Source of the DNA: Candidatus Woesearchaeota archaeon
Lineage (GTDB): Archaea > Nanobdellota > Nanobdellia > Pacearchaeales > GW2011-AR1
Direction: 5' to 3'
Length of the DNA: 64,000 nt
Assembly: GCA_964578845.1 (NCBI GenBank)
Contig: CAZOEF010000003.1
Coordinates: forward strand, 5,009-69,008
Below are positions 34,501 to 51,517 of this stretch, in pieces. The notes under the pieces were generated by a model. That model saw only the letters and a program-made list of their open reading frames with translations. It was not told the DNA's origin and did not search any database. Each line of letters begins with the position of its first letter. Within the stretch, counting starts at the first letter, position 1. The translations under genes were made by a program, and so were the position numbers.

Positions 34501-36987
34501 ACTTCCGTCCTCACTATCATCAAGATTTATTATAGCTGGATCATTTCCTGTAAAGCTCTGGGTAGAAGTCTCAAAAAGCCTTGTTCCAAAAACGCTTGGA
34601 GTTATATCAACATCGACTGTCTTATTGTCTGTTATAAAAGTATTCCCGCCGTCATCCGAGCATTCAACAGCCCATGAATGCTCTCCATTAGGGAGATAAT
34701 AAAAGAATGATTGGTTAATTGATTCTTCAACAGAATTGACAGTTGTAGAAAATATTCCATCAACATATAATGAACAGCTGCTGATCCCTGATGCTGCATC
34801 TGTAGCATTGTAGATGAATTCAAGGTCAAATGGATCATTAATTGTGCTCCCATTTACTGGCGAAACTAAGCTTACAATTGGAGGAGTTAAGTCAACTGTA
34901 AATGTCCTATTAGAAACTGCGAAAACACATTCATCATCAGTGCAGCATTCTACATTCCAGATAAATGTCCCGCTTGAACTATAGGAATTAGTAAAGAAAT
35001 TTTCTGATCCGTTTGTTATTGAGTTATCTGTCTGGTTCAGAACAAAGCTGCCAGTAGAATCATCCCATAAGCTGCAACTAACAATAGGATCGTTAGATAC
35101 TGGAGTGTAATTGAAAGATACAGGAGAGCTTACAAATCCATCATTTTCTGGGCTGTTTAATGTTACTCCGAAATTTCCGGTGAATGATTCCTCATAATCC
35201 ACATCAAAATATAGCACATCCCAGTTAGCAGTTGATGGCCCCCCTGCATTAGTGGTCTTTACAGCTTCTGATTTTGCTCTAGCCCTAGTTCCGCTCGCTC
35301 CGAAGAAATTTGAACAAGTCCAATCCTCTAAACTAGTTACATCCACGCAGCTCACTCCTGGATTCGGGCTAGTCCCCGGACAGCTGCTAGATACTGCCTG
35401 CCAGCTATTGTCACCATCATTATCGACCGAGATATCACAATCCGTTACTGAGCTAGTTCCTGTCCACCATTCATAGCATAGTTCTACAGTTTGTATTGTA
35501 TTGCAGTTTGTAATGCTTGAATTATAGGATTCAATTCTAATCCCTCCATACCTTGAATTTCCATGGATATTGTGGGCCTCTAAAAAACCATCGTTGCATG
35601 AAAGCAGATCCCCTGAGGATCCACAAGCTCCAGGATAACTTCCGTCGCAGGCAGATCCAAAGCTTCCTTGTGATCCTTGGCTTTCAGCTGAACATACTTG
35701 CGCCCTTAGGTCAGTAGCTCCCGATGGCGCTGCAGTCGGATCGACAATTAAATCAAATTCCAAGTATGATTCCCCTGTCCCTGACTGGTCAACCACTTTC
35801 AGATCAAAAGAATCATGCATTCCAGCCATTCCAGTCAATAATTCCCTATAATAGGCTTCAGCAGTTATCAATGGAAAATCAATTACCTTAATATCTGTCC
35901 CTGCTATATATACCTCAACATTGACAGGTTTGCCGCTTGGATTTCTTGCATAAAAGGTAATATCATTAACACTTGTCAAGCTTTTTTCAAAAACAACTCT
36001 TGCATATTCTCTATTATTAATTTGCTCACTCCATATTCCATCTAGAGATCTAACTTGTTGATATATATCAGAAATGAACTCTTTATTCTCATCAAGATGC
36101 TGTGCAGAGGTTATTAGGATTATGATAAAATTCTGATCACTATCCATTTCAGGAATTATCCACTCAATCCTGTCTATTGATCCATCATTATTCGTATCGA
36201 CAGGATTGAAATCTATGTACTTGTCTTTTTCTTGCCAATAGACTTTTATTGAATTTGGATCTAAGCCATCTACATCTGAAAAAGCAAGGACATTGTTATA
36301 TTTTAATCCTGAAGATTTTATCTTAACTTTCTTCTCTTTATTATTGATCAAAGTCTCTTCTTTTTCAGGTCCAGGAGTATAATATGTAAGTTCAGAATTG
36401 CCTCTAAAATTTATTGGCTGAATATATTTCTCAGTCTGTATATTTAATCCGACAATCCTCAAAAGACTAGCTATACCTCCATCATCTATTGTGAAATCTA
36501 TTTCTTCGTTCTCACTGGATAAAGTTATATTGTAAGCCTCTGAAGGAATTCCTATCCTTTCCTGGACACTTACCTCTTTTTTCCATCTAACAGGTTCACC
36601 TATCTTAACAAAAGTCTCTTCATTTTGATAGATTGAAGTCTGGACAACTTCATTGTTTAATATCTGTTGATCAATCACCTCAAATTGATAGGATTCAAGA
36701 TTATCTTCATAGAATAAGACTAATGTGTATTTTCCAGTTTCCTCAGGGTTGAATGCGAATACATCATCGCTCCCTTCCTTAAGGTATGAAGTTGAAGGAG
36801 TGTTTATTTTTATCCTATAATTATCAATTCCTTTTAAGTCTATGCTGACCTTCTCTCCCAAATAATAAGTCTCTTTGTTTATGATGGCAGATGACAGATC
36901 AGATGAAAAAAGTGTGAATAAGATTGCAAATGTTCCTAGAACAAATAAAAAGATAATTCCTAGTTTTACAATTCCCTTCTGGTTCAT
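28591..36987 (-). CDS. Giant (2798 aa) N-terminally anchored surface adhesin with 2 LamG-like lectin domains, more than 10 Ig-like repeats and a CARDB-like domain
   Basis: The N-terminal helix is VKLGIIFLFVLGTFAILFTLF. LamG-like modules lie at about 32870..33472 and about 31650..32274 (…VDEFRIWDRALSDDEI and …IDEVNIYDRALSPEEV). Repeats of P-x-I-x-L-x-S/P-x-N…F-x-Y…D…C-x-L recur through the protein. A CARDB-like module lies at about 29180..29470 and ends in EWNELNNN. N-x-S/T sequons are very dense. Confidence 0.85.
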   Translation of the reverse strand: MNQKGIVKLGIIFLFVLGTFAILFTLFSSDLSSAIINKETYYLGEKVSIDLKGIDNYRIKINTPSTSYLKEGSDDVFAFNPEETGKYTLVLFYEDNLESYQFEVIDQQILNNEVVQTSIYQNEETFVKIGEPVRWKKEVSVQERIGIPSEAYNITLSSENEEIDFTIDDGGIASLLRIVGLNIQTEKYIQPINFRGNSELTYYTPGPEKEETLINNKEKKVKIKSSGLKYNNVLAFSDVDGLDPNSIKVYWQEKDKYIDFNPVDTNNDGSIDRIEWIIPEMDSDQNFIIILITSAQHLDENKEFISDIYQQVRSLDGIWSEQINNREYARVVFEKSLTSVNDITFYARNPSGKPVNVEVYIAGTDIKVIDFPLITAEAYYRELLTGMAGMHDSFDLKVVDQSGTGESYLEFDLIVDPTAAPSGATDLRAQVCSAESQGSQGSFGSACDGSYPGACGSSGDLLSCNDGFLEAHNIHGNSRYGGIRIESYNSSITNCNTIQTVELCYEWWTGTSSVTDCDISVDNDGDNSWQAVSSSCPGTSPNPGVSCVDVTSLEDWTCSNFFGASGTRARAKSEAVKTTNAGGPSTANWDVLYFDVDYEESFTGNFGVTLNSPENDGFVSSPVSFNYTPVSNDPIVSCSLWDDSTGSFVLNQTDNSITNGSENFFTNSYSSSGTFIWNVECCTDDECVFAVSNRTFTVDLTPPIVSLVSPVNGSTINDPFDLEFIYNATDAASGISSCSLYVDGIFSTTVNSVEESINQSFFYYLPNGEHSWAVECSDDGGNTFITDNKTVDVDITPSVFGTRLFETSTQSFTGNDPAIINLDDSEDGSGNTAAFSIIAGQFAHMVNATSHHLGNNGAIIPAGTTVNWQSSFTTTSGNIELTWKLLLMNSTSTSLLCQFGDDGPNGEPANLGTETASNSTCFPTDFYLSSQDRIQLVINGFNTHSTQARSITHGWEGFTSSFVDINITTEGFVNSNLTNPLVDPGAAVGESFNVTCEASCTIGICRNVEVYVQSNTSSEDWRNISSSGNIILGAGETNPHDLGNIGTTPVQTTFNLQGNQDSVNNLRCFTASDYDSDESDSTTINLAGIPSIYFTPPTLTNGTMRLINNIPINITIEDSSLERFIFNFNGKNYTFGPNELGLFYGNESTNDLIDITQPILGSGPLNLIPEPNLVLAYNFDNESDFGDANTVSDLSQYTNNGTINGATLISAGKQDGGISFSGGTDRVTVPSFDKLNGQSKATISTWVNQSSLSQDQYLLWADGNVLIEFGDSFNIPGSSNLRLRWNLEGDWRNSHTVQNILTTDEWNHWVFVFDNGATRIYLNGENIYNGTDTQTSISAISPDYEIGSRDSGGLEGNVDEFRIWDRALSDDEISAHSSYEFQKDSGTWQFFANVTNLADGVYSYYGYAENFAGNSNMTEVRYVIINTTETLPPVITVISPLEDLYGVSQVPFEVSVDKASNSCSYSLDGESNVSMTMANSTYFSALPTVADGTHTVIFSCTSTFGLTGTSEEVEFSVDATAPAMSFVSPTPADETTVTANHTEINISMTEANLADFIWQWNNTNYTLYNESLVLMMDLDNRTILGENSTNIIDSSIYGNNGVLNGNANWVQNGRYNSAVGFDGTNDWIEIPDDASLDDMDQFTFEAWILDTANDELARGIASKRVDSTNNRAWSIFLFTDREIYFDIGTERDSSGVAVTANEWTHLAVTFDGSLPSGERKKFYYNGELVGTADSTATTISRESVADMYIGILNANYGESWQGMIDEVNIYDRALSPEEVSMSYSTSVSKYDPDSWQFYANLTGLPDGEYNYSAYATDLLGKSSSISRSLSIRTDLNAPTITLISPANNSLSNSSTVAFNFTAVDNFDSSFVCNLYAGNQQDLGFTVTNNSIVSRVVNGLFDGMQMWNASCVNSADATGFSENWFVNVSESPSIQLMTANNSFFNEPNITLEYQPIDNTAFNMCELYVDGTSSQTNQSAIVNGGVNAFNISGISSGVHLWRVDCTDIIGLLNQSETRTFTVDTDGLNISLLYPFDGDELFTDTVEFSYNATDNLDNLLQCNINVNSQIVDSFNATNGAITNRSVFFTQGGLKYWNVTCVDDAFNSITSETRNFTLAFAPVVELINPQNNHFFSTPNITLFYNTTDDNDNIANSTLILNGLANVTNQSAVINGGMNNFTFQLPDGLYNWSVDVTDLTGLVGSSNETRNFTVDTHAPYFEILGPANNSLLDWNNITFELTAFDNIDQSLTCDIVINGFSAIDDAELSNGTLTNLTSIQQDGSYTWSIGCFDDAGNFNSSDEYSFVMEAPPRVTNLFPADTTTLNITDLTFVYLPEDAIGIFNCSLFMDDSFINSDDSVDANQNNTFDVNGISEGHHDWNVECVDAFPDFNTGESNTTNFTIDVTPPTVNLTLPLNGSNVLRLVDFNFTVSDNLDNELSCNLYVDGVLNATNINVASGSSSVQTLGKYQLGQHNWDVDCFDNAPNMGSSVTWVFNVTLADLMVNSSSITFNSTSPKENETVRVDAAIYNLVNVTVRNITVRFFDGDPLLGGEQIDSDLVIDQLDPLSSDIVSIDWPATLGTSDIHVHVDPPILSNGSIEEWNELNNNISSAATVGAWQYVYGQIEEQSIFRLTDQDDQKLLIWNASNFEDGNLFVADSESAISWTNLQAIGKTSSEGDAANDLSDLDTLLGMGSFVDSVSNTFTGNPDLDLIIFGNTIDEIPAANSTNNTEFFTGILWDTADDIGDGQFSQDDKEDLVFVTDISKDVQGTYGIYDYEIRIPARLREYIDNGDRKVIFYAEIR

Positions 36988-37148
36988 CTCTTCCTCCTCA
37001 CAGAAATGCTCTTTCTCTCTGGATCATAATACAGATCTATAAAGTCCCCTTCCTTTAGATCAAGATTCTCTAAGAGCTCTTTCGGTATTGCAATCCTATT
37101 TAGCCCTTGTATTTTTACGCCTCTCTTGAATAATATCTCCTCTTTCAT
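36984..37148 (-). CDS. AbrB/SpoVT-type small DNA-binding protein (54 aa), not in the ORF track
   Basis: My own translation is MKEEILFKRGVKIQGLNRIAIPKELLENLDLKEGDFIDLYYDPERKSISVRRKR. The core RIAIPKEL...L.LKEGD is the AbrB looped-hinge-helix signature. Its TGA overlaps the ATG of the giant gene (ATGA at 36984..36987). Confidence 0.65.
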   Translation of the reverse strand: MKEEILFKRGVKIQGLNRIAIPKELLENLDLKEGDFIDLYYDPERKSISVRRKR

Positions 37149-37235
37149 ACTTTTAAAATACTATCTTTATACTAAATTAATACTAGTATTTAAACCTGAT
37201 TATATATTAAAATTGAATACAATATTTAAAAAATT

Positions 37236-38240
37236 TTAGATGCCTGGAGCTTGTGTTGCTCCAAAAATGATGTTTCCTGAACAGCTTCCAGCTACACCAG
37301 TAGGTACATAAATTCTCCAGTAAGTAGCATTTGTGTCGTCTAAATAAGGAGCTGCATCATTTAGTCTATAAGGCAAATTAAATCTTCTAACTACATTAGA
37401 ACTAGTAAGATTTGAGTACAGGGATTCAAATTCTGCCGGTGTTAAAGCACTGCTATTCGAGATAGTTAGATTATACTTTTCATAATTTACAGATATATTC
37501 TTTATTGCTCCAAGAGTGCAATTCATGGCCAAACCATCTCCTTGTGTGACTGCGTATCCTTCAAGGCTTAAATTAAGGAATACATTTCCAAAATTAGTGA
37601 CGTTAGCTAGTTGTTCTGATGAAACAAATGTGGCATTCACTTCACCATAATCAATTGAATCAGGCAAGCCTACTGCTAAAAGTGTATTAATAGTAATTAA
37701 GTCGCTGTCCTGATCAGTAAGGCTGACGTTGTCTGTAGCAACCACTGTAGCGTTCCAGGTAGCATTGTTTGCATAATATTCTACATCAAAAGTGCAGGAC
37801 GCATTGACTTCATACTGGTCTCCATAAGCTGTATCAATAAAGCAGGAATTATTAGTATAATGATGGTTATTATCATCTGCATCCCCGTAAGAGGAAGTAA
37901 CAGAATCAAAGAAATGGGCAGTAAAGTTAATTATATCATCTTCGCCATTGAAATCTCTTGCAATTATATTGACAATTACAGGGGTTGTAGCATTTGCAGT
38001 AAGATCTACTCCTGAATCATCATTATTGATCGAAACATTAAGAATTTCTGGTGAAACAGTCCCTACTTCAAGCTGTGTGTTGACAGTCACACTCTCTCCA
38101 ACTATAGCTAAAGCTAGATTAGGGAATAAAGTAAGCACTGCAACAAAGAACAGCACTTCCACAGTTAACAATATAGTTACGAAAAGAGCTTCCTTCTGTC
38201 TTAAAGGATTTCTATTTAAAGTATTATTTTTTTTGTTCAT
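37236..38240 (-). CDS. Secreted or anchored surface protein (334 aa)
   Basis: A polar basic N-region (MNKKNNTLNRNPLRQKE) precedes a roughly 25-residue hydrophobic segment. The protein is N/T/S-rich with many sequons and 4+ Cys. Confidence 0.6.
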   Translation of the reverse strand: MNKKNNTLNRNPLRQKEALFVTILLTVEVLFFVAVLTLFPNLALAIVGESVTVNTQLEVGTVSPEILNVSINNDDSGVDLTANATTPVIVNIIARDFNGEDDIINFTAHFFDSVTSSYGDADDNNHHYTNNSCFIDTAYGDQYEVNASCTFDVEYYANNATWNATVVATDNVSLTDQDSDLITINTLLAVGLPDSIDYGEVNATFVSSEQLANVTNFGNVFLNLSLEGYAVTQGDGLAMNCTLGAIKNISVNYEKYNLTISNSSALTPAEFESLYSNLTSSNVVRRFNLPYRLNDAAPYLDDTNATYWRIYVPTGVAGSCSGNIIFGATQAPGI

Positions 38241-38243
38241 TTT

Positions 38244-38969
38244 TTAAGTGAGTTCTACATAGAGATAATATGGAGTAGCTCCTGTGAAAGTTGCTGCTCC
38301 ATTCTCTGGGACTATCATCTGGAAATCATAAGTTCCCCCATCAAATCCTGTAGCTCCTTCCTCCATTATAGTTGCATATATTAAATTGCTTCCAGTTGAC
38401 TCATACAAGGCTATTTCTTCAAATGATAGATCCTGTGAAGCTCCGTTGACATAAGTGTTAAGTGTAGGGCATGAATCTGAGCCTATACTTGATGTCCCTA
38501 CAAAAAATGCATCGTGAGTGCCGCTCTGTCCGTTATTGAACGTTGCAGTAATATTATCTGAAAATCCTGTATGATTCATCCTGGTGTTCTCAAGTTCTAA
38601 AGTGGTCGCATTAGAGCAGTCTATATTAGTCCAGGAAATGCTTGAGCTATTTCGCGTAGCATATATCTCACCGCTTACTGAAGCAAGGCTCCAGTCATAA
38701 ATAGCAGATCCTGAAGCATCTTCAAGGCTAAATGTACCTGTTACCTCTCCTACAAATGCTTTCCACCTTGTATTTATAGTATCTGCTGTGATATTCAAAG
38801 TAGCTATGTATCCTCCTGAAATGTTTAGTTCATAAGCTGAACTTGTCCCTCCAGTCTCATTAGCCAAGACTGTAACACTGCTAGGCCCTTCAGGTGCAGC
38901 TAAAACAAAAGTAAACATAAACCCTGTCGCCACAAGCCCTAATATAATGATTAACAATGATTTAATCAT
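38244..38969 (-). CDS. Secreted protein (241 aa), paralog of 39011..39808
   Basis: It has a Sec-type signal, MIKSLLIIILGLVATGFMFTFVLA. It shares the blocks W..F.G.VTG, Y.WSLAS..GE.Y, ISW.NI.C, HD.FF, FEE..LYE, HDFQM.V and Y...VEL with the neighbouring gene. Confidence 0.7.
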   Translation of the reverse strand: MIKSLLIIILGLVATGFMFTFVLAAPEGPSSVTVLANETGGTSSAYELNISGGYIATLNITADTINTRWKAFVGEVTGTFSLEDASGSAIYDWSLASVSGEIYATRNSSSISWTNIDCSNATTLELENTRMNHTGFSDNITATFNNGQSGTHDAFFVGTSSIGSDSCPTLNTYVNGASQDLSFEEIALYESTGSNLIYATIMEEGATGFDGGTYDFQMIVPENGAATFTGATPYYLYVELT

Positions 38970-39010
38970 TACTTTCCCATTTGAAGTTTTTTTTTAAATT
39001 TCATCTTTAG

Positions 39011-39808
39011 TTACTCTAGCTCTACAAAGAAGAAATACGTTGTAGGTGCTGTATCAGTTCCGTGCCCATTATCTAAGACTAGCATCTGGAAATCATGAGT
39101 TGCCTGGTCAAAGCCTCCTAAATCTTCTTCTAGTAATGAAGCGAACACGACACTTGATGAAGTAGGCTCGTATAATAATACTTCCTCAAATTCCTGGTCT
39201 ACTCCTGATCCTGTATCACCATATACTCTAGTGCTTAGGCACTCATCAGCAGAGAACTGCTGGCTTGCAGTGAAAAATTCATCATGATCTTGCAATGAAA
39301 ATGTTTCATTTATTCCATCAACATCATCAAAAGCTATTCCAAATGTTTCTTCTAATACTGAAAGGTTAGTTCCTCCTAAGTTTGTTTCTCCAGGAGTCTC
39401 AGCTCCTCCAGCACCATTTGCCGTAAAATTAAAGCATTGGATATTTGACCAAGATATAGAGGTGTTAGTAGAGGAATAAACTTCTCCCTGTGGACTTGCT
39501 AAGCTCCAATTATAGAATACATCATCATTTGCATTTGCCAACTGAATAACTCCAGTGACATTTCCGTAGAAACCTTGCCAGGTCTGTGTTGTAGTATAAC
39601 CAAAAATATCTACATTAGTGACATTTCCAGCAGTAGCATTAGCGCTTCCTGCTGTATCAGCTAGTGCACCCTCAGATGTTCCAACAGTGGTTTCTGCTCC
39701 AGAAGGTCCAACTGCACTAGTCAAAGGAAAAAATGAAAATGCTAAAGCTAAAACAGCTAAAGCTATTAATGCTTTATTAAAAAATACTATGTTTGTTTCT
39801 CTTGTCAA
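39011..39808 (-). CDS. Secreted protein (265 aa), paralog of 38244..38969
   Basis: It starts at TTG, preceded by AAAGGTGAT (Shine-Dalgarno-like). The signal peptide ends in LTSA. The shared blocks are listed under 38244..38969. Confidence 0.7.
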   Translation of the reverse strand: MTRETNIVFFNKALIALAVLALAFSFFPLTSAVGPSGAETTVGTSEGALADTAGSANATAGNVTNVDIFGYTTTQTWQGFYGNVTGVIQLANANDDVFYNWSLASPQGEVYSSTNTSISWSNIQCFNFTANGAGGAETPGETNLGGTNLSVLEETFGIAFDDVDGINETFSLQDHDEFFTASQQFSADECLSTRVYGDTGSGVDQEFEEVLLYEPTSSSVVFASLLEEDLGGFDQATHDFQMLVLDNGHGTDTAPTTYFFFVELE

Positions 39809-42862: not shown

Positions 42863-43067
42863 TTTTCACCTCTTTTTCAAGTAGAGAGTCCGTCTTTAAA
42901 AAACCTTCATTGTATATCCAGAGAGTTATTATTTTGCTAACTACGTCTTGTTCATTGCTTCCTAATACACCTATAAGTTTTTGGATAATTTCCTTCTGCC
43001 TTATCGTCACTGTCCCCCTGACAACAGTGGTTTCTGATTTAGAACTTTTTAATATTTTTTTAGGCAT
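42855..43067 (-). CDS. Small (70 aa) protein, possibly RHH-like DNA-binding, coupled to the 973-aa gene
   Basis: It overlaps the downstream start by 8 nt. GTVTIRQKEIIQKLIGVLGSNEQDVVSKII could form a strand-helix-helix, but the fold assignment is weak. Confidence 0.35.
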   Translation of the reverse strand: MPKKILKSSKSETTVVRGTVTIRQKEIIQKLIGVLGSNEQDVVSKIITLWIYNEGFLKTDSLLEKEVKNA

Positions 43068-43148
43068 TTTTTAGTTATTAAATAGTTATTAATTAAATCT
43101 TTATAAATATATCTATAATTATTTAAATAAGGTAACAAATGAAGTGCT
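43068..43148. promoter_or_regulatory. Divergent AT-rich control region between the two surface-locus operons
   Basis: The 81-bp region has TATA-like boxes: atttaaataa about 24 nt before the ATG at 43149, and tttataaat/ttaattaa 20-35 nt before the minus-strand ATG at 43067. Confidence 0.5.
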
Positions 43149-45254
43149 ATGAAAAGAGGTAATCTCCCGATTTGTTTAGTCGTGACATTTATGTTTTTAC
43201 TAACTATCTCAATTGTAAATTCTCAGGACGTTCCAACAATATTGGAAGTGCCATTTCAAGAAGGGGCTCCCGAGCTGATCAAAGTAATTCCTGATCAATC
43301 CTGGCCAGTGAATACTAACAATACCGAGGCATTTGATCTTGATGAATACTTTAGGGATAATGAGACCTCAAACCTGACTTATACTGCTACATTTGTTTCT
43401 AATATTAATATATCAATAGAAGAGTCATTAAATTCAACAAATGGAACTATGCATCTTGTTTCCTTCTATCCAGAAACTGATTTTACTGGAACAAGACTGG
43501 TAAGATTTATCGCATCAGATGGAACATTCCAGACTCAAAGCAACATAGTGACTTTGAACGTAGTGAACGACACAGAGCCGCCCCAATGGAGTTTTCCTGC
43601 AAAAGATAAGCTGACAATATTACAGAATGACTTTATCAATTTCACTACCCTCTGGACTGATAATGTTCAGCTGAGCAATTATACATTTTCTATAAATCAA
43701 GGATCTGGATGGAGCAATTCGTCGCGATCATTTTCTGGAACTATGGCAACTTCAGCTGAAAGGGTGCAGATAAGTGCGCCTGGAGGGACAATAGTGCAAT
43801 GGATGTTCTTCGCATCAGATACTTCCGGAAATATGAATGCCACAGATATCCAGAGTTTCACTGTCACTGCTACAAACACTCCTCCTACAACAGGCAATGT
43901 GGGAAATGAGGACGAGGATGATGATTCACCTAGTCCTGCTCCTGTCGAGGAAACGCCTAGAAATGAAACCCAGGATTTTTCTGTTTCAGCAGACTCATTC
44001 AGGGTTGAAGCTAAACAAGGAAGCAGGTCGACAATATCACTAAAAGTCACTAACACAGGTGTTGGGACACTTAATTTCACTATTGGGATAACTGGGCTGG
44101 ATATGTTTGATATATCTATTAGTGAAGATGAATTCTCCTTGATTGGAGGAGATTCAAAAACATTGATAATTGAAATATCTACTGATCGGTTCACCACTCC
44201 TGATTTATATTTTGGAGATATGCTTATCAGTGCCGCTGACAAGAACGTTACCCTTCCGATAATAGTAGAGGTAAAGCCGATAATAACAAGTATTGATCTC
44301 AAGACAGAAGTTATTGAAGAGGAAATCCTTCCTGGAGAGGACATAAATGCAAATATTACTTTGACTAATCTCGAAGACATTGAGGAAAAAGAGATCGAAT
44401 TATATTATGCGATTATTGATTATTCAGGAAATACATTAGACTCAAATCAGGAAACTCTGAATTTTTCAAGCAGGTCACTCGGGATGATCAAAAATTTGAC
44501 AATTCCTTCAGATGCCACCCAAGGAGAATATATTTTCCTGACAAGAGTGGTCTTTGATGATGAAATTAATATTGACTCTGACACTTTCCTTGTTGGAGCA
44601 AGGTTTGATCTTGCTGCATTTCTAAAAGCCAATCTGATTTTAGTTTTGATTGCATTGTTCTTGGTATCTGCTTTAGTATTTATCCTTAGATACAGGCAGA
44701 ATAAGCAAAGGCTAAAGCTATTGAACTTGTACTTATTGATGAACCAGATGAAATCCTTGCTTGAGGAAAACAAGATAGATGAGGCTATTAATATCTATAT
44801 AAAGATAAAAGGAGTTTATGGTGAGCCTCTGTCTCAGACAGCTATATATAACAAAGAAGAACTGAAAAAATCAGTTGAGGAGCTTGCAAAAAAACTGGAT
44901 CTTCTGGCAATAAATCAGCCCCCTCAGCCCCAAGAGAATGCAGAGAAACCTGAGCAGACAGCAGGCTCTAAAAATGAAACTAAGACAGAAAATCCAGAGT
45001 CAACTCCTGCAGAAACAGATCAATCACAGGCAGCAGGCTCTGAAGCTAAAATTCAGGCAGCAGAAAATCCAGAGTCAACTCCTGCAGATGAACCTCAGAC
45101 AGAGAAAACAATAGAGCAAAGTGAGCCCCCTGAAGCTAAATCTACTCAGGCAAATAAGAAAGCTAGACCAAAAAGACCAAAATCCGTCAAGCAAAAAAGA
45201 GCAAAAAAAGTAACGAAATCTAAAAAAGTAAAGAAATCTAAAAAAAGAAGATGA
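43149..45254 (+). CDS. Surface protein (701 aa) with signal peptide, Ig/CARDB-like modules, C-terminal TM helix, helical tail, acidic P/T/E repeat and polybasic terminus
   Basis: The signal is LPICLVVTFMFLLTISIVNS. The TM helix is LILVLIALFLVSALVFIL. The tail contains MNQMKSLLEENKIDEAINIYIKIKGVYGEPL. ENPESTPA occurs twice. The protein ends in KKVTKSKKVKKSKKRR. Confidence 0.75.
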   Translation: MKRGNLPICLVVTFMFLLTISIVNSQDVPTILEVPFQEGAPELIKVIPDQSWPVNTNNTEAFDLDEYFRDNETSNLTYTATFVSNINISIEESLNSTNGTMHLVSFYPETDFTGTRLVRFIASDGTFQTQSNIVTLNVVNDTEPPQWSFPAKDKLTILQNDFINFTTLWTDNVQLSNYTFSINQGSGWSNSSRSFSGTMATSAERVQISAPGGTIVQWMFFASDTSGNMNATDIQSFTVTATNTPPTTGNVGNEDEDDDSPSPAPVEETPRNETQDFSVSADSFRVEAKQGSRSTISLKVTNTGVGTLNFTIGITGLDMFDISISEDEFSLIGGDSKTLIIEISTDRFTTPDLYFGDMLISAADKNVTLPIIVEVKPIITSIDLKTEVIEEEILPGEDINANITLTNLEDIEEKEIELYYAIIDYSGNTLDSNQETLNFSSRSLGMIKNLTIPSDATQGEYIFLTRVVFDDEINIDSDTFLVGARFDLAAFLKANLILVLIALFLVSALVFILRYRQNKQRLKLLNLYLLMNQMKSLLEENKIDEAINIYIKIKGVYGEPLSQTAIYNKEELKKSVEELAKKLDLLAINQPPQPQENAEKPEQTAGSKNETKTENPESTPAETDQSQAAGSEAKIQAAENPESTPADEPQTEKTIEQSEPPEAKSTQANKKARPKRPKSVKQKRAKKVTKSKKVKKSKKRR
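44988..45088 (+). repeat. 75-bp tandem duplication inside the 701-aa gene tail
   Basis: The 26-nt string gaaaatccagagtcaactcctgcaga occurs exactly at 44988..45013 and 45063..45088. The period is 75 nt, which is 25 aa. Confidence 0.85.
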
Positions 45255-47440
45255 TAAAAAATAAATTCCTGGTTGCATTAGTATTCTTAGTTATAGTGGT
45301 TTCTCCTGCCCTTGCTCAAAGCGCTTACGGTGATCCTATTGATGCTGAATCATATACTATTTCAAGAAGCTTTGTAGACAGGGAGCTTGCTTTAGGGGAT
45401 ATATTCATGGATTCTTTTTCAATAGAGAACAAGCAAGGGTCTCAGATGTCTGTGACTCTTTCAACAACAGGAGAGATATCTGATTTGATAGAATTTGATG
45501 TTGCAGGAGTGATAATTGATGCGCAAAATAAGTCAGACATTGATTTTAATATAATTGCTAGAGAACTCGGAACATTCACTGGAACTATAGTTGTCTCAGG
45601 AGATATAAATGAAGAGATTCCTGTAAATTTGACTATCCTGGAACAGTCTAATTATCAAAAATTTATTTTGAATATAGAGCCATTGAAAAAAACTTTCACT
45701 TTGGATGAAAGGATAGAAGTAAAGATAAACCTTCGCCAAATACTCTCTGAAGCCCTGCAGAATGTTTCATTTGTCTACACTCTTGGAAAATTGAATGCTG
45801 AAAATTTCCAGATACAGTTAAGTCCTGAAGAGACAGAGAGCGAAGTATTTGTAAGATTGAGCCCGCAGGAAGAAGTCAGGGATATTGAGGGTTCTTTCCA
45901 GATAACTAAAAAATTTCAAATACCTGAAGAGGTGACTGAAGGGGATTATGTACTGAATGTTGTAGCCAATTACAAGAATGAATCTGTCCTGGCAAGCACA
46001 ACATTCACATTGACAATTCCCTTCCTTCAAATAAGATTATTTGGGCTGATACCTGTCTGGCTAATAATCACAATCGTCTCTGTCCTTGCTTTTGGGACTA
46101 TTGCTTTCTTGATAATACGCAGAGAGATAAAGAAAAGGAAAAAATACAAAATGCAGCTTGTCACTAACACGTTGCCAAAAAAGGGAGAGAGAAATCTATG
46201 GTTCGGGAAAGTTGCCGAGAAGAACATCCCTGCTTATTATGAGATGGATAAATTGACAACACACGCTGTTGTGGCAGGAGCTACCGGAGGGGGAAAGAGC
46301 ATTGCTGCGCAGGTCATAATAGAAGAGGCTTTATTGAAGAACATTGCTGTAATAGTCTTCGATCCAACAGCTCAGTGGTCAGGAATGCTTAGAAAAGGGG
46401 ACGATAAGAAAATGTTTTCTTTCTATCCAAAATTCGGCCTTAAGCCATCTGACGCCAGGGCTTTCCCTGGGAATGTTCGGCAGGTTATGAATGAAAGGCA
46501 GGTCATAGACATAGAAAAATACACTCAGCCAGGGCATATCCAGATATTCACATTGAATAAATTAGATCCATCAAAAATGGATGTGTTCGTCGCAAGTGTT
46601 ATTGCATCTATCTTCAGGTCAGATCCTAAGGAGCACCCTGGACTAAAGACCTTATTAGTATTTGATGAAGTCCATAGATTGCTTCCTAAATTCGGGGGTT
46701 CAGGCGAAGGATTCCTTCAGATTGAAAGAGCTTGCAGGGAATTTAGAAAATGGGGATTGGGAGTGATGTTGGTATCTCAGGTATTATCAGACTTCGTCGG
46801 AGAGATCAAGGCTAACATCAACACAGAAGTCCAGATGAGGACAAGGGATGAAGCTGATCTCAACAGGTTAAAAACTAAATACGGAGAAGAGGTCTTGCAA
46901 TCCCTGATCAAAGCATCTGTAGGGGTTGGAATGTTTGTAAATCCATCTTATAACAGAGGTAAGCCTTATTTCATAAATTTCAGGCCCATATTGCACAATA
47001 CTAGAAGATTAAGTGATGAAGTCCTGGAGAAATATAATCAATATGGGGAAGTAATAGATGACCTGGAATACCAGATAGAACAATTAGAAGCTGAAAAAAT
47101 AGATACATTTGACCTTAAGATGGAATTGAAATTAGTCAAGGATAAGCTGATGACTGGCAATTTTACTGTTGTTGATATTTATCTTGAAGGTTTGACTCCT
47201 AGATTTGAGAAGCAGTGGCAATCATTAGGAAAGAAGCCTAAGAAGAAAGAGATAGAACTGATAGATGCTAAGGAAGTTGAAGCTTCCATAAACCAGGCCA
47301 AGAGCGAAAGAGCTAAAATAGAATCTGGTTCAAAAGACAAGAAAGAGGGAAGTGACGAAGCTGATAAGCCTGTGAAAGAAAAGAAAAAATCTCCTAAAAA
47401 GGAAAAGATCAAAAAGCCAAAAGCAAAAAAACATAAATGA
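45251..47440 (+). CDS. Bitopic membrane protein: extracellular N-domain, one TM helix and a cytoplasmic HerA/FtsK-like (DUF87-type) P-loop ATPase
   Basis: The signal is FLVALVFLVIVVSPALA. The TM helix is aa 265-289 (46043..46117). Walker A is GATGGGKS at 46277..46300 and Walker B is LLVFDEVH at 46652..46675. REFRKWGLGVMLVSQ is typical of HerA-like ATPases. A C-terminal coiled coil and a polybasic tail follow. ATGA overlaps link it to the genes on both sides. Confidence 0.75.
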   Translation: MIKNKFLVALVFLVIVVSPALAQSAYGDPIDAESYTISRSFVDRELALGDIFMDSFSIENKQGSQMSVTLSTTGEISDLIEFDVAGVIIDAQNKSDIDFNIIARELGTFTGTIVVSGDINEEIPVNLTILEQSNYQKFILNIEPLKKTFTLDERIEVKINLRQILSEALQNVSFVYTLGKLNAENFQIQLSPEETESEVFVRLSPQEEVRDIEGSFQITKKFQIPEEVTEGDYVLNVVANYKNESVLASTTFTLTIPFLQIRLFGLIPVWLIITIVSVLAFGTIAFLIIRREIKKRKKYKMQLVTNTLPKKGERNLWFGKVAEKNIPAYYEMDKLTTHAVVAGATGGGKSIAAQVIIEEALLKNIAVIVFDPTAQWSGMLRKGDDKKMFSFYPKFGLKPSDARAFPGNVRQVMNERQVIDIEKYTQPGHIQIFTLNKLDPSKMDVFVASVIASIFRSDPKEHPGLKTLLVFDEVHRLLPKFGGSGEGFLQIERACREFRKWGLGVMLVSQVLSDFVGEIKANINTEVQMRTRDEADLNRLKTKYGEEVLQSLIKASVGVGMFVNPSYNRGKPYFINFRPILHNTRRLSDEVLEKYNQYGEVIDDLEYQIEQLEAEKIDTFDLKMELKLVKDKLMTGNFTVVDIYLEGLTPRFEKQWQSLGKKPKKKEIELIDAKEVEASINQAKSERAKIESGSKDKKEGSDEADKPVKEKKKSPKKEKIKKPKAKKHK

Positions 47441-48006
47441 AAAAGACAAGGAAAAATCATGCTAAGAAAAAGACTAAGCCAGCTAAGAAAATTGTAGAGA
47501 AAGCTGAAGAGACTTATGTCCCTTACAAGTCAGCCATAGCTAAAAAAGAAGAGAAGCCTGTTGCAAAAAAATACAAGACTTTTCTCTCAGAAAAGAAATT
47601 GAACCATTTGCTTAAGATTGGAGATGTAGAGGAATTCTATTATTTGGCTAATATTCTGAAAGAGAATGAGATTGAAGCGTTTATTGAGCACTATAAACTA
47701 AAAAAGCCGAACCCTAAAGAGAATAGAATTTCTGCGATGATCCATAGGGCAAAAACTCCTTCTGAGCTGCTTGACATTGTAAAATCAGAAAGTGCAAATC
47801 ATTTGAAAGAAAGATACGATGATCTGAAGAAATTGATCAGTGAAAAAAGGAAAAAAGGCAAGGACGTTTATGTTCCAGACATAAAGCTGATGTCAGTGCC
47901 TTTAAAGATAAAGATTTATTTGGCAACCATGGAGAAAAAAGACTTTTACAAAGTAAAGAAAATGCTTGATGATATTCAGGCAGAGCTTGAAAAAATTATT
48001 CCTTAA
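47437..48006 (+). CDS. Polybasic helical protein (189 aa), last gene of the ATPase operon
   Basis: It starts MKKTRKNHAKKKTKPAKK. An ATGA overlap links it to the ATPase gene. I recognised no family. Confidence 0.5.
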   Translation: MKKTRKNHAKKKTKPAKKIVEKAEETYVPYKSAIAKKEEKPVAKKYKTFLSEKKLNHLLKIGDVEEFYYLANILKENEIEAFIEHYKLKKPNPKENRISAMIHRAKTPSELLDIVKSESANHLKERYDDLKKLISEKRKKGKDVYVPDIKLMSVPLKIKIYLATMEKKDFYKVKKMLDDIQAELEKIIP

Positions 48007-51465: not shown

Positions 51466-51517
51466 AATAAACCTAATGATTTGTTCTTATTAATTTCTTG
51501 TAGTATAAACGCCACAA

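What the first reader, a model, noticed from the sequence alone, without database searches (positions are those of the whole stretch)
36984..48006. Divergent two-operon surface locus around a membrane-anchored HerA/FtsK-like ATPase that matches no appendage or transfer system I know
Seen in the sequence: two tightly packed operons diverge from an 81-bp AT-rich region (43068..43148).

Plus arm: a 701-aa secreted and TM-anchored protein, a 729-aa bitopic protein with a cytoplasmic P-loop ATPase, and a 189-aa polybasic protein. ATGA stop/start overlaps at 45251 and 47437 link all three.

Minus arm: a 70-aa small protein overlaps the start of a 973-aa signal/PKD/Ig/stalk/TM protein. Three secreted proteins follow (265, 241 and 334 aa). 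Then a 54-aa AbrB-like ORF is fused by ATGA to a 2798-aa adhesin.

No PilB/FlaI-type ATPase, prepilin peptidase, secretin or VirB/Trb-like membrane component is visible.

Inference: an ATP-driven hexameric translocase is genetically wired to extracellular stalk, adhesin and possible filament proteins. This could be a cell-cell contact apparatus for attachment plus DNA or protein transfer. It would be analogous in logic, not in sequence, to Ced/Ted or conjugative coupling systems. In a host-dependent DPANN-type archaeon it would be a candidate host-interaction machine.
Basis: partly seen in the sequence, partly recalled or inferred. Interest (0 to 1): 0.8.

Follow-up and report, generated by a model that had tools for sequence, protein, structure and literature searches.

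The report
Adhesin-coupled membrane HerA motor module
This region encodes a conserved but undescribed archaeal membrane complex in which a HerA-type ring ATPase is anchored in the membrane by its own extracellular Ig-like domains and is wired (in relatives, fused) to giant surface adhesins, making it a strong candidate for a new envelope-spanning machine in DPANN and some other archaea.

Summary

The module is real and conserved.
- The ATPase has about 480 relatives in GTDB species genomes.
- Among 43 distinct short-type copies, p701 sits directly upstream in 36/40. The divergent p70/p973 pair is present in about 75%. p189 lies downstream in 24/39.
- Paralogous long-type loci recur with p265/p241-like, p334-like and AbrB-plus-adhesin genes.

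New findings:
- The ATPase ectodomain is a paralog of p701's membrane-proximal Ig-Ig module.
- The cytoplasmic tails of p701 and p973 are homologous.
- In relatives the same TM-HerA unit is the C-terminus of giant surface proteins (2,000-7,818 aa; 49 of the 150 closest clusters).
- p189 is fused to the ATPase C-terminus in four clusters.

The ATPase is HerA-clade but lacks a HAS-barrel or VirB4-like N-domain. The module has no VirB6-like, VirB2-like, PilB/FlaI, WXG100 or NurA component. p241 has no fold neighbour. I found no description in the literature.

Best reading: a new trans-membrane HerA-motor/adhesin complex, probably translocating a polymer at cell-contact sites. The substrate is unresolved. 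Members outside DPANN (Hadarchaeales, Altiarchaeota) weaken a strictly host-interaction reading.

The parts
45251..47440 (+). Core motor: a 729-aa type-I membrane HerA-clade ATPase. Signal peptide at about residues 1-24. Two Ig-like ectodomains at about residues 33-255 (nt ~45347-46015). TM helix at about residues 263-296 (nt ~46037-46138). RecA-like ATPase at about residues 315-580 (nt ~46193-46990), with Walker A GATGGGKS (343-350) and Walker B LLVFDEVH (468-475). Long C-terminal helices at residues 589-703.
   Evidence: Pfam DUF87 4.9e-11 and HerA_C 3.6e-07, both above cutoff. PADLOC mad8/HerA hits. PDB sequence and profile hits are to HerA chains only. Invariant motifs. AF2 model, pLDDT 73.4, with domain order. 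Ig/PapD/ASH-like Foldseek hits for the ectodomain. More than 700 homologs. 483 matches in GTDB species genomes.
43149..45254 (+). p701: bitopic partner. Signal peptide, distal beta-rich domains, membrane-proximal Ig-Ig module (about residues 270-485), TM 488-506, cytoplasmic helical tail (about 505-590), then a low-complexity basic tail. Its stop overlaps the ATPase start (ATGA).
   Evidence: Directly upstream of the short-type ATPase on the same strand in 36/40 loci, with gap <=0 in 32. Its Ig-Ig(-TM) module is homologous to the ATPase ectodomain: HMM E 3.9e-9 for the window ATPase and about 1e-22 for long forms. A single-sequence, TM-free query hits 45/76 ATPases, best 4e-12. Weak Pfam DUF4625/fn3_6 hits.
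47437..48006 (+). p189: cytoplasmic helical protein. The conserved core is a C-terminal hairpin of about 80 aa (helix - RKKGxD turn - helix). Its start overlaps the ATPase stop (ATGA).
   Evidence: Downstream on the same strand in 24/39 short-type and 19(+4)/27 long-type loci. Alignment A4. The module is fused to the C-terminus of the ATPase polypeptide in 4/150 representative clusters, and is visible in the P0314 C-terminus. No Pfam or PDB match.
43068..43148 (.). Divergent AT-rich intergenic region, the presumed bidirectional promoter region. A TATA-like TTTATAAATA lies about 40 nt upstream of the p701 ATG (seen by eye).
   Evidence: 81 bp at 14% GC. 28 distinct homologous p70/p701 spacers have median length 102 bp and GC 0.195, against 0.30 for the loci. 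Promoter function was not tested.
42855..43067 (-). p70: small cytoplasmic protein, highly conserved (62% mean column identity), overlapping the p973 start by 8 nt. Possibly a regulator; my ribbon-helix-helix impression is unconfirmed.
   Evidence: Divergent from p701 in 24/38 short-type loci. Overlap with p973 is usually -8 or -4 nt. Alignment A3. No Pfam or PDB hit.
39941..42862 (-). p973: bitopic surface protein. N-terminal signal/anchor (12-30), large ectodomain with weak PKD/Ig signals, TM 817-835, cytoplasmic helical domain 845-973.
   Evidence: Divergent partner in 26/35 short-type loci. Its cytoplasmic tail is homologous to the p701 tail (hhalign 89.6%, E 1.9e-6; seven control pairs <7%). 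PKD_4 E 0.003, below cutoff. Topology.
39011..39808 (-). p265: secreted, sequon-rich protein, paralog of p241.
   Evidence: 35% identity to p241, E 2e-41. Found in 22-27 of 79 related loci, typically in the operon of the long ATPase paralog. No Pfam or NCBIfam hit.
38244..38969 (-). p241: secreted beta-rich protein of a conserved orphan family. Two invariant Cys and a C-terminal YYLYVEL motif.
   Evidence: 387 homologs, all unnamed and without Pfam domains. Alignment A2. AF2 pLDDT 76.7, pTM 0.72. No Foldseek hit with E<0.2 in PDB or BFVD. No PDB profile hit.
37236..38240 (-). p334: signal-anchored or secreted protein with 18 N-glycosylation sequons. A recurrent accessory gene.
   Evidence: Homologs in 24-37 of 79 loci. 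No family hit. Not significantly similar to p2798.
36984..37148 (-). p54: AbrB/SpoVT-domain small protein, translationally coupled (ATGA) to the giant adhesin gene.
   Evidence: NCBIfam TIGR01439 33.1 bits, above the 28.3 cutoff. An AbrB-like gene next to a p2798-like gene recurs in about 25 loci.
28591..36987 (-). p2798: giant secreted adhesin-like protein (LamG/ConA-like domains plus Ig-like arrays).
   Evidence: Pfam Laminin_G_3 8.1e-50, Big_13, Big_3_3, Big_7. Shares Ig arrays with p2296. In relatives, comparable giant ectodomains are fused to the ATPase.
54433..56130 (-). p565: signal peptide, large ectodomain and C-terminal TM anchor. A recurrent neighbour of the module; here it is displaced by about 6 kb.
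   Evidence: Second gene downstream of the short-type ATPase in 14/38 loci, and present in 30/79 loci. Sequence and topology. No Pfam hit.
56209..57015 (+). SpoIIM-family 6-TM membrane protein, recurrently next to p565.
   Evidence: Pfam SpoIIM 4.8e-15, above cutoff. Present in 18/79 loci. This archaeal family was predicted to act in membrane remodelling/division (PMC5898192).
57012..63902 (-). p2296: second giant Ig-array surface protein, a recurrent neighbour.
   Evidence: Pfam Big_13 1.5e-24. Homologs in 26/79 loci.

Best explanation
The window carries the 'split, short' form of a widespread, undescribed archaeal envelope module. Its centre is a HerA-clade ring ATPase that is itself a type-I membrane protein.

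Shown:
- The ATPase has two extracellular Ig-like domains, one TM helix and a cytoplasmic motor with intact Walker motifs.
- p701 carries a paralogous Ig-Ig-TM module.
- p701 and p973 share a homologous cytoplasmic tail.
- p189 is a cytoplasmic hairpin protein that some relatives fuse to the motor's C-terminus.
- In a third of the closest relatives the same TM-motor unit is the C-terminus of a 2,000-7,800-aa adhesin-like surface protein.
- Gene order is conserved across hundreds of genomes, with 2-3 paralogous versions per genome.

Inferred:
- The motor hexamerises under the membrane, as HerA/FtsK-family ATPases do.
- This gathers its TM helices and Ig collars, together with p701 and p973, into a ring that forms the base of an extracellular adhesive structure. 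p973, p2798, p2296 and perhaps p265/p241/p334 would contribute to that structure.
- ATP hydrolysis threads a polymer through the ring and across the membrane at sites where the adhesins hold another cell or surface. DNA is the most likely substrate, by analogy with every characterised membrane-bound HerA/FtsK relative: CedB/CedD, FtsK/SpoIIIE, Streptomyces TraB (own knowledge) and Thermus TdtA.
- p70 and the AbrB-like p54 are probably local regulators.

My probabilities: physically coupled motor/surface-protein complex about 0.85; polymer translocase about 0.5; DNA as the substrate about 0.3. The confidence value given for this entry (0.5) refers to the translocase reading as a whole.
For: - HerA-clade assignment and intact catalytic motifs.
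- Domain order signal / Ig-Ig / TM / ATPase / helices in the AF2 model, with Ig-type Foldseek hits for the ectodomain.
- Neighbourhood conservation: p701 upstream in 36/40, p70 in 24/38, p973 in 26/35, p189 in 24/39 (short type) and 19(+4)/27 (long type). Overlapping starts and stops, and the short AT-rich spacer, are also conserved.
- Module sharing: p701 ectodomain to ATPase ectodomain; p701 tail to p973 tail, 89.6% against controls <7%.
- Rosetta-stone fusions. 49 of the 150 closest 50%-identity clusters are >=2,000 aa with the motor at the C-terminus. A TM helix lies 30-110 aa before Walker A in 110/123. p189 is fused in 4. One giant carries an extracellular subtilase. A 7,818-aa member exists.
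- Membrane-anchored HerA-clade ATPases with a known role (CedB/CedD) import DNA (PMC11868833; PMC9905601).
- Pacearchaeota are thought to live on scavenged nucleotides (PMC8204110 abstract).
Against: - No experiment or expression data bears on function.
- Each motor subunit contributes only one TM helix, and no polytopic channel protein is consistently linked. SpoIIM occurs in 18/79 loci. A giant fusion locus has only the coiled-coil c10 as partner. How a DNA-sized pore would form is therefore unclear.
- No nuclease, relaxase, SSB or DNA-binding component is conserved in the neighbourhood.
- The polybasic tails that might have suggested nucleic-acid binding are not conserved.
- Two or three paralogous sets per genome, each with its own surface proteins, resembles dedicated secretion/assembly systems more than a DNA importer.
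- I could not classify the ATPase domain structurally, because Foldseek on the full-length model was swamped by Ig domains.
Confidence: 0.5

Rival explanations
1. Dedicated protein export or surface-structure assembly system, analogous in logic to type VII secretion. The membrane HerA ring exports signal-less helical proteins (p189, and the c10 and c9 coiled-coil proteins of paralogous loci), or drives assembly or anchoring of the co-encoded surface proteins (p265/p241/p334, giant adhesins). It would not move DNA.
For: - Small or medium cytoplasmic helical proteins without signal peptides sit immediately downstream of the motor in all locus types: p189 in 24/39 and 19(+4)/27; c10 in 20/27 long-type loci and after giant fusions.
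- Multiple paralogous sets per genome, each with its own surface proteins, as with ESX paralogs (own knowledge).
- In long-type loci the secreted p265/p241 genes follow the motor on the same strand.
- No DNA-processing genes are linked.
Against: - p265, p241, p334, p701, p973 and the giants all have ordinary N-terminal signal/anchor segments, so they should use Sec (the N-terminus is variable and the first invariant residues lie just after the hydrophobic segment).
- There is a single HerA-type P-loop domain rather than the three tandem FtsK/SpoIIIE-type domains of EssC/EccC (own knowledge), and the Pfam FtsK_SpoIIIE hit is below cutoff.
- No WXG100 or other T7SS family hit.
- p189 fused to the motor's C-terminus in some relatives fits a subunit better than a substrate.
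Confidence: 0.2
2. No transport at all: a mechanochemical or 'inside-out' controller of adhesins. The cytoplasmic ring uses ATP to cluster, tension, retract or switch the conformation of the ectodomains it is fused or bound to. p189 or c10 might act as a central coiled-coil stalk in the ring, as FliJ or the F1 gamma subunit do.
For: - The motor is covalently fused to giant ectodomains through a single TM helix in 49/150 close clusters.
- There is no consistent polytopic channel partner.
- The conserved partners are coiled-coil or hairpin proteins.
- The ectodomain and tail modules are shared among three bitopic proteins, suggesting a mixed ring.
Against: - From own knowledge, no HerA/FtsK-family ATPase is known to work this way. 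Characterised members thread DNA, or dislocate pilin in the case of VirB4.
- No sequence relationship was detected between p189, c10 and the ATPase C-terminus.
- The idea is entirely inferential.
Confidence: 0.18
3. Divergent member of a known DNA-transfer system: Ced/Ted or another T4SS-derived conjugation apparatus.
For: The top NCBIfam hit of the ATPase is CedD. CedB/CedD are TM-anchored HerA-clade ATPases. There are weak sub-threshold hits to TraD/VirB4/TrwB models.
Against: - The CedD hit scores 34 bits against a 600-bit cutoff and covers mainly the P-loop region.
- There is no cytoplasmic VirB4-like N-domain; the TM is followed almost directly by the ATPase.
- The module has no VirB6/CedA-like polytopic protein and no small two-TM VirB2/CedA1-like pilin.
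- PDB profile hits are HerA only, with no VirB4 or TrwB.
Confidence: 0.03
4. An FtsK-like chromosome segregation or cell-division translocase. This is suggested by the recurrent adjacency to the SpoIIM-like membrane protein, which has been predicted to act in archaeal membrane remodelling/division.
For: p565 and SpoIIM lie next to the module in 14-18 loci and are present in the window at 54433-57015. Prediction for the SpoIIM-like arCOG01994 (PMC5898192). The motor is membrane-anchored and belongs to the FtsK-HerA superfamily.
Against: - Two or three paralogs per genome, with highly variable and often giant extracellular parts, are not expected of a division protein.
- The tight linkage is to adhesin-like surface proteins.
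- There is no FtsK gamma or winged-helix domain hit.
- SpoIIM is absent from most loci.
Confidence: 0.05
5. Part of an integrated mobile element or virus, with a HerA-like packaging or transfer ATPase.
For: HerA-like ATPases are common in archaeal mobile elements (PMC4158269). A defence island (type I R-M, Fic, PIN) lies upstream in the window. One giant homolog was auto-named 'predicted phage tail protein'.
Against: - The module occurs in hundreds of species genomes, with conserved order and housekeeping flanks: DNA polymerase DP2, gyrase B, SRP54.
- No integrase, capsid or terminase was found among the conserved neighbour families that I scanned.
- GC content is unremarkable across the locus.
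Confidence: 0.02

Closest known systems
CedB/CedD ATPases of the crenarchaeal Ced DNA-import system (and TedB of Ted)
   Same: HerA-clade/VirB4-like P-loop ATPases tethered to the archaeal membrane by TM helices. They act with cell-cell contact structures and are thought to power passage of DNA across the membrane (PMC11868833, PMC9905601). CedD is the best NCBIfam hit of the window ATPase.
   Different: - The hit is 34 bits against a 600-bit cutoff.
- Ced/Ted ATPases have a cytoplasmic VirB4-like N-domain. Here the N-terminal half is extracellular (Ig-Ig) and is paralogous to a partner protein.
- Ced/Ted need a VirB6-like channel and a VirB2-like pilin. Neither is present.
- Giant ectodomain fusions are not reported for Ced/Ted in the two papers read.
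HerA (HerA-NurA DNA end-resection helicase; bacterial anti-phage HerA)
   Same: Closest sequence relatives of the ATPase domain. DUF87 and HerA_C are above Pfam thresholds. The only PDB sequence hits are HerA chains (8wiv, 9c1m, 9x1l, 4d2i, 8xau). The HerA-type 'EVHRLLPK ... CREFRKWG ... SQ' motifs are conserved.
   Different: - Scores are far below the NCBIfam HerA equivalog cutoffs (about 31 bits against 800-970).
- There is no room for an N-terminal HAS-barrel domain between the TM helix and the ATPase core.
- It is a membrane protein with an ectodomain.
- No NurA, Mre11, Rad50 or defence partner lies in the neighbourhood.
Type VII secretion system (EssC/EccC with EsaA/EssB and WXG100 substrates)
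   Same: By logic only (own knowledge of T7SS): a membrane-anchored FtsK/HerA-superfamily ATPase is encoded with bitopic membrane proteins bearing large extracellular domains and with small signal-less helical-hairpin proteins. There are several paralogous sets per genome.
   Different: - One HerA-type ATPase domain rather than three FtsK/SpoIIIE-type domains.
- The Pfam FtsK_SpoIIIE hit is below threshold.
- No WXG100, EssB, EsaA or EccB-E family hits.
- The p189 hairpin has a conserved RKKGxD turn rather than WXG and can be fused to the motor.
Single-protein membrane DNA translocases: FtsK/SpoIIIE, Streptomyces TraB, Thermus TdtA
   Same: [quoted passage not shown]
   Different: - Those proteins have multi-TM or peripheral anchors, no large ectodomain and DNA-recognition domains (gamma/wHTH).
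- Here there is one TM, an Ig-Ig or giant ectodomain and no detectable DNA-binding domain.
Giant DPANN surface proteins such as the SPEARE proteins of Nanohaloarchaeota
   Same: Very large, sequon-rich, adhesin-like extracellular proteins, sometimes with a serine protease domain, in host-associated small archaea (own knowledge of SPEARE). One motor-fused giant here has a subtilase domain.
   Different: SPEARE proteins are not known to end in a TM helix plus a HerA ATPase. I did not test any SPEARE sequence here.

Membership tests
HerA clade of the FtsK-HerA P-loop ATPase superfamily (ATPase domain only) | Pfam DUF87/HerA central domain and HerA_C above gathering thresholds | tested here: met
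   PF01935 43.6 bits (cutoff 23.2); PF05872 29.6 bits (cutoff 22). PDB profile hits are HerA chains only.
HerA clade of the FtsK-HerA P-loop ATPase superfamily (ATPase domain only) | Intact Walker A and Walker B motifs conserved across the family | tested here: met
   Within GATGGGKS (343-350), positions 343-350 are invariant. Within LLVFDEVH (468-475), V470, F471, D472, E473 and H475 are invariant in 16 sequences. A Walker A pattern is present in 123/150 representatives.
Canonical HerA helicase (HerA-NurA / anti-phage HerA) | N-terminal HAS-barrel domain preceding the RecA-like core | tested here: not met
   In the AF2 model the TM helix (269-296) is followed by only a short beta-hairpin before the P-loop at 343. 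The N-terminal half is extracellular Ig-Ig. I inferred this from secondary structure; there was no HAS-barrel-specific search.
Canonical HerA helicase (HerA-NurA / anti-phage HerA) | NCBIfam equivalog score, and a linked nuclease or defence partner (NurA, Sir2, DUF4297 and the like) | tested here: not met
   HerA models score 26-32 bits against cutoffs of 800-970. No partner proteins were hit in Pfam, NCBIfam or PADLOC.
Ced/Ted (T4SS-derived archaeal DNA import) | CedB/CedD/VirB4-type ATPase with a cytoplasmic VirB4-like N-domain | tested here: not met
   CedD NF053655 34.2 bits against cutoff 600. There is no cytoplasmic N-domain. Features are as defined in PMC11868833.
Ced/Ted (T4SS-derived archaeal DNA import) | VirB6/CedA-like polytopic membrane channel protein | tested here: not met
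   No protein in 36984-48006 has more than two hydrophobic segments. The only polytopic neighbour is a SpoIIM-family protein at 56209-57015. A remote VirB6 relationship was not probed with profile-profile tools.
Ced/Ted (T4SS-derived archaeal DNA import) | VirB2/CedA1-like small two-TM pilin | tested here: not met
   The small proteins p70, p54 and p189 have no TM segment, and there were no pilin family hits.
Type VII secretion system | EssC/EccC-type ATPase with tandem FtsK/SpoIIIE domains | tested here: not met
   There is a single ATPase domain, and Pfam FtsK_SpoIIIE scores 19.3 bits, below the cutoff of 24.
Type VII secretion system | WXG100-family substrates encoded nearby | tested here: not met
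   No WXG100 hit for p70 or p189 in Pfam or PDB profiles. The conserved turn motif of p189 is RKKGxD.
Type IV pilus / archaellum (TFF superfamily) | PilB/FlaI ATPase, PilC/FlaJ platform, class III signal peptidase and prepilins | tested here: not met
   None were detected in Pfam/NCBIfam scans of the locus and flanks. In the p241 family the N-terminus is variable and the first invariant residues (A24, P26, G28, P29) lie just after the hydrophobic segment, which looks like a Sec-type signal. No dedicated signal-peptide predictor was run.
FtsK/SpoIIIE DNA translocase | Multi-TM N-terminal domain and a gamma (winged-helix) DNA-recognition domain | tested here: not met
   There is one TM after the ectodomain, and no Ftsk_gamma hit.
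Makarova 2015 predicted archaeal secretion complex (arCOG01314/arCOG02884) | MoxR-type AAA+ ATPase, vWA-domain protein and DUF4350 membrane protein | tested here: not met
   No MoxR, vWA or DUF4350 hits in the locus. The system is as described in PMC5898192.
AbrB/SpoVT family (p54 only) | AbrB-type domain above the NCBIfam cutoff | tested here: met
   TIGR01439 33.1 bits, above the cutoff of 28.3. DNA binding was not tested.

The most novel reading that the evidence does not exclude
This is a new class of archaeal trans-envelope machine. A hexameric HerA motor has subunits that continue through single TM helices into Ig collars and, in many lineages, into kilodalton-to-megadalton adhesive fibres. 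Together they form one 'grapple-and-pump' device that attaches to another cell and moves DNA or protein between the two cytoplasms. It would be the long-sought material-exchange apparatus of Woese-/Pacearchaeota and other small archaea, and evolutionarily independent of T4SS/Ced, T7SS and type IV filaments.
Probability: 0.25. Interest if true: 0.95.

Novelty: categorically new. Interest (0 to 1): 0.8.

Why it matters
How DPANN archaea attach to partner cells and obtain DNA, nucleotides, lipids or proteins from them is a central open question. No dedicated machinery has been identified for the huge Woese-/Pacearchaeota radiation.

This module is present in hundreds of their genomes, usually in 2-3 paralogous versions, and is conserved at 50-65% identity. 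It joins the only obvious energy source (a ring ATPase) directly to adhesin-like surface proteins.

The architecture is an extracellular domain, one TM helix and a HerA motor, scaling up to 7,800-aa fusions. I could not find it in the literature, and it challenges current ideas of what HerA/FtsK-family motors do.

It gives concrete targets (ATPase, p701, p973, p189, c10, p241) for multimer modelling, cryo-ET, proteomics and biochemistry. Because relatives occur in Aenigmarchaeota, Altiarchaeota and Hadarchaeales, it may be a general archaeal surface machine rather than a DPANN curiosity.

Tried and rejected
1. Polybasic cytoplasmic tails as evidence for nucleic-acid binding. Only 7-27% of homologs have such a tail, so it is not a family feature.
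2. p189 sharing a domain with the ATPase C-terminus. BLAST E 8.2, no HMM hit, hhalign 6%. The single-linkage link is explained by genuine p189-ATPase fusions.
3. p70 as a ribbon-helix-helix protein. No Pfam or PDB profile support. It remains a guess.
4. p241/p265 as a known filament subunit or viral-type protein. No Foldseek hit with E<0.2 in PDB or BFVD, and no PDB profile hit.
5. Foldseek classification of the ATPase.
6. c10, c9 and c8 related to p189 or to the p701/p973 tails. hhalign <7%.
7. p334 as a fragment of p2798. Not significant.
8. p565 as the 7-TM arCOG02177 partner of SpoIIM. It has only a signal peptide and one C-terminal TM.
9. Identity with the 2015 predicted archaeal secretion complex. 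The components are different.
10. Finding the source record. The window proteins are in the protein collection, from an unnamed 156,553-bp NCBI contig. Gene-position look-ups failed.
11. Eight literature searches and nine papers read gave no description of a membrane-anchored HerA with an ectodomain or giant fusions. PMC521647 (the founding FtsK-HerA paper) was not held.

Full report
OBSERVATION. The finding's coordinates and gene structure are correct.

The mechanical ORF list reproduces every ORF.
- Minus arm: p70 (42855-43067), p973 (39941-42862), p265 (39011-39808), p241 (38244-38969), p334 (37236-38240), p54 (36984-37148), p2798 (28591-36987).
- Plus arm: p701 (43149-45254), a 729-aa ATPase (45251-47440), p189 (47437-48006).

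The spacer 43068-43148 is 81 bp at 14% GC. ATGA overlaps link p701 to the ATPase, the ATPase to p189, and p54 to p2798. p70 overlaps p973 by 8 nt.

A hydropathy scan supports the stated topologies. p701, p973 and the ATPase have a signal/anchor segment plus one later TM. p265, p241 and p334 have only an N-terminal hydrophobic segment. p70, p54 and p189 have none.

Family assignments:
- The ATPase passes the Pfam thresholds for DUF87/HerA central domain and HerA_C.
- p54 passes the NCBIfam AbrB cutoff.
- The PKD/Ig signals in p973 and p701 are sub-threshold.
- No type IV pilus, archaellum, secretin or VirB/Trb family appears in the locus or flanks.

The flanks hold a type I R-M/Fic/PIN defence island, a patatin gene and a P-type ATPase. 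Eight nearby flank genes (26029-28541 and 50812-54142) have no homolog in any related locus, so they are not part of the module.

ORGANISM. There are no rRNA or tRNA genes in the window, and GC is about 0.37. Where the ATPase's full-length homologs (50-65% identity) carry a name, they are labelled Pacearchaeota, Woesearchaeota, Nanoarchaeia or Nanobdellota MAGs. The window's own proteins are in the protein collection, from an unnamed 156,553-bp NCBI contig that also carries a 1,215-aa paralog of the ATPase. A DPANN (Nanoarchaeota sensu GTDB) origin is therefore well supported.

IS THE NEIGHBOURHOOD CONSERVED? Yes.

A scan of one genome per GTDB species found 483 confirmed relatives of the ATPase, and I analysed 79 loci. 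I called ORFs myself and ran phmmer/hmmsearch with the window proteins. Three recurrent architectures emerged:
- Type A, as in the window: ATPase of 700-840 aa; p973 and p70 divergent from p701, ATPase and p189; often followed by p565 with or without SpoIIM.
- Type B: ATPase of 1,120-1,280 aa; followed by a p189-like gene, a roughly 290-aa coiled-coil gene (c10), p265-like, a wHTH gene, p241-like, further genes and a p2798-like adhesin. An AbrB-like gene plus a p2798-like gene lies upstream.
- Type C: a p973-like gene directly upstream of an ATPase of about 1,300 aa.

Counts among 73 distinct ATPases:
- p701 is directly upstream of the short type in 36/40, overlapping or abutting in 32.
- p70 is the next gene, divergent, in 24/38.
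- p973 follows in 26/35.
- p189 is downstream in 24/39 (short type) and 19(+4)/27 (long type).
- c10 follows in 20/27 long-type loci.

The divergent spacer is conserved as short and AT-rich. It has a median of 102 bp and GC 0.195, against 0.30 for the loci. The p70/p973 overlap is typical. At least 14 genomes carry both a short and a long copy.

In the window, p565, SpoIIM and a second giant protein (p2296) lie at 54433-63902. They are recurrent neighbours that have been displaced here by a few unrelated genes.

The 11-kb finding is therefore a mosaic. It combines a conserved five-gene type-A core with accessory genes (p265, p241, p334, AbrB, giant adhesin) that elsewhere travel mostly with the long paralog.

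THE PROTEINS SHARE MODULES.
1. The ATPase's extracellular half is a paralog of the membrane-proximal part of p701.
   - The p701 HMM (positions about 281-529) matches ATPase residues 33-299 with E 3.9e-9.
   - It matches long ATPases at about 1e-22.
   - A single-sequence query with p701 residues 270-485 (no TM) hits 45/76 ATPases down to 4e-12.
   - The HMM seed contained no ATPase sequences.
2. The cytoplasmic tails of p701 and p973 are homologous by profile-profile comparison (89.6%, E 1.9e-6). Seven other pairs of helical regions from the same loci score below 7%.
3. p265 and p241 are paralogs (35% identity, E 2e-41).

Shared ectodomain, TM and tail modules in three bitopic proteins encoded side by side are best explained by a mixed membrane complex.

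FUSIONS IN RELATIVES. An exhaustive HMMER search of 1.84 billion cluster representatives with only the cytoplasmic part of the ATPase found 368 clusters at E<=1e-30.

Among the best 150 (46-79% identity over all 369 residues), the module lies at the C-terminus of proteins of very different sizes: 38 below 900 aa, 63 of 900-1,999 aa, and 49 of 2,000-6,253 aa. A TM helix lies 30-110 residues before Walker A in 110/123. The p701-type module is detectable in 99/150.

Sequences I read directly (P0314 6,253 aa, P0288 4,862 aa, P0275 4,192 aa, P0261 3,000 aa) have this layout:
- a signal peptide;
- thousands of residues of sequon-rich extracellular sequence;
- the Ig-Ig module, one TM helix, the ATPase and the C-terminal helices.

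P0275 carries an extracellular subtilase domain. A 7,818-aa member exists. The p189 module is fused to the ATPase C-terminus in four clusters.

A giant fusion gene in a Woesearchaeota contig sits among housekeeping genes and is followed only by c10 (E 7e-47). The same pairing occurs on a contig whose protein clusters at 90% identity with Hadarchaeales proteins (E 2e-42).

Source labels of divergent members include Aenigmarchaeota, Altiarchaeota, Nanoarchaeota and Hadarchaeales. All are annotated merely as DUF87, DUF853 or HerA-like.

These are classic Rosetta-stone fusions: the motor, an adhesin-like ectodomain and p189 act as one physical unit.

STRUCTURE.
- The ATPase model (pLDDT 73.4) shows a signal helix, two beta-sandwich domains (35-255), a TM helix (269-296), a RecA-like core (315-577) and long C-terminal helices.
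- There is no room for a HAS-barrel or a VirB4-like cytoplasmic N-domain.
- Foldseek on the full model returned only Ig/PapD/ASH-type matches, such as RbmA, WxLIP and HYDIN, so it does not classify the motor.
- Sequence and profile searches of the PDB hit HerA chains only.
- p241 was modelled from 40 homologs (pLDDT 76.7, pTM 0.72, beta-rich C-terminal half). It has no neighbour with E<0.2 in PDB or BFVD and no PDB profile hit.
- The p241 family has 387 unnamed members, two invariant cysteines and a conserved C-terminal strand.
- p70, p189, p334, p565 and the extra families c8-c11 have no Pfam or PDB assignment. c14 is a winged-helix protein.

COMPARISON WITH KNOWN SYSTEMS. The membership table gives the tests.

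The ATPase domain is a member of the HerA clade, but not a canonical HerA:
- equivalog scores are about 31 bits against cutoffs of 800-970;
- it has no HAS-barrel;
- it has no NurA or defence partner.

The closest functional analogue is CedB/CedD, which are TM-anchored HerA-clade ATPases needed for DNA import (PMC11868833). However, Ced/Ted are defined by a VirB4-like N-domain, a VirB6-like channel and a VirB2-like pilin (PMC9905601). None of these is present.

The other candidate systems also fail:
- T7SS: there is a single HerA-type domain and no WXG100.
- FtsK/SpoIIIE: there is no multi-TM anchor and no gamma domain.
- Type IV filaments: there are no TFF components.
- The archaeal 'secretion complex' predicted in 2015: that system is MoxR, vWA and DUF4350.

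Eight full-text searches and nine papers gave no description of this architecture. Absence from the held library is not proof that it is undescribed.

MECHANISM. Shown: the parts list, their topology, their conservation, their shared modules and the fusions.

Inferred:
- The motor forms a ring, as its relatives do.
- Its TM helices and Ig collars, mixed with p701 and p973, form the membrane base of an adhesive extracellular structure.
- ATP hydrolysis threads a polymer through the ring and across the membrane at contact sites.

I favour DNA for two reasons. Every characterised membrane-bound HerA/FtsK relative moves DNA. These organisms are also thought to depend on scavenged nucleotides.

The case is weak for four reasons:
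- there is one TM per subunit;
- there is no consistent polytopic partner;
- no DNA-processing genes are linked;
- there are several paralogous sets per genome.

The main rivals are a T7SS-like protein export or assembly role (0.2) and a non-transport, mechanochemical control of the fused or bound adhesins, with p189 or c10 as a possible central stalk (0.18). Known-system, division and mobile-element readings are unlikely. Members in lineages not known to be host-dependent temper the 'host-interaction machine' idea without excluding it for DPANN.

VERDICT.

This is a real, conserved and apparently undescribed envelope module built on an unprecedented ectodomain-TM-HerA architecture. It is known only as 'DUF87 domain-containing protein' in databases.

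I rate it categorically new at the level of the system. The motor domain itself belongs to a known superfamily. I give it high interest (0.8), with function still to be established.

Noticed in passing
relatives of window 45251-47440 (P0314, P0288, P0275, P0261, P0400; loci L080, L081): The TM-plus-HerA unit forms the C-terminus of giant surface proteins of 2,000-7,818 aa in 49 of the 150 closest 50%-identity clusters. One (P0275) also has an extracellular subtilase domain and a C-terminal DUF835 domain.
   Followed up: yes
window 11611-21830: Type I restriction-modification system: HsdR 11611-14682, HsdS 17204-18412, HsdM 20304-21830. It is interleaved with Fic/DOC (15431-16369), PIN (19085-19561) and DUF4145 (19718-20302) genes, forming a defence/toxin island upstream of the module.
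   Followed up: partly
window 22444-25057: A DUF3800 protein (22444-23064) and a patatin-like phospholipase (24056-25057) lie between the defence island and the giant adhesin gene. Neither has a counterpart in related loci.
   Followed up: no
window 47996-50701: A P-type cation-transporting ATPase gene on the minus strand converges on p189 and overlaps its 3' end by 11 nt. In most related loci p565 occupies this position instead.
   Followed up: partly
L052, L056, L063, L065, L072 and other type-B loci: In the long-ATPase operons a winged-helix (MarR/ArsR-like) gene of about 207 aa sits between the p265-like and p241-like genes. A 10-TM protein of about 366 aa containing an HESGH sequence follows. 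Neither is present in the window.
   Followed up: partly
L081 25558-26310: A ParA/MinD-like (CbiA) ATPase gene follows the c10 coiled-coil gene after the 7,818-aa HerA fusion on a Hadarchaeales-like contig. ParA/VirC1-like genes also accompany the Ted DNA-import system. This is a single case.
   Followed up: no
window 45251-47440 (database record P0241): In the 90%-identity protein clustering, the window's own 729-aa ATPase is filed under a 56-aa representative. This is why the homology search did not return a self-hit. It is a clustering artefact to keep in mind when hits seem to be missing.
   Followed up: yes
L002, L014, L017, L018, L021, L023, L025, L028, L030 (type-A2 loci): A sub-variant replaces p189 and p565 downstream of the short ATPase with a convergent block: a p2798-like gene (~623 aa), a p973-like gene (~675 aa), a signal-Ig-Ig-TM gene (~402 aa), a p334-like gene (~397 aa), a ~107-aa gene and an AbrB-like gene. 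This shows modular reshuffling of the same families.
   Followed up: partly
window 28591-36987 and 57012-63902: The two giant proteins share repeated Ig-like (Big_13-type) arrays (BLAST E 6e-13). p2798 additionally has two LamG/ConA-like lectin domains.
   Followed up: partly
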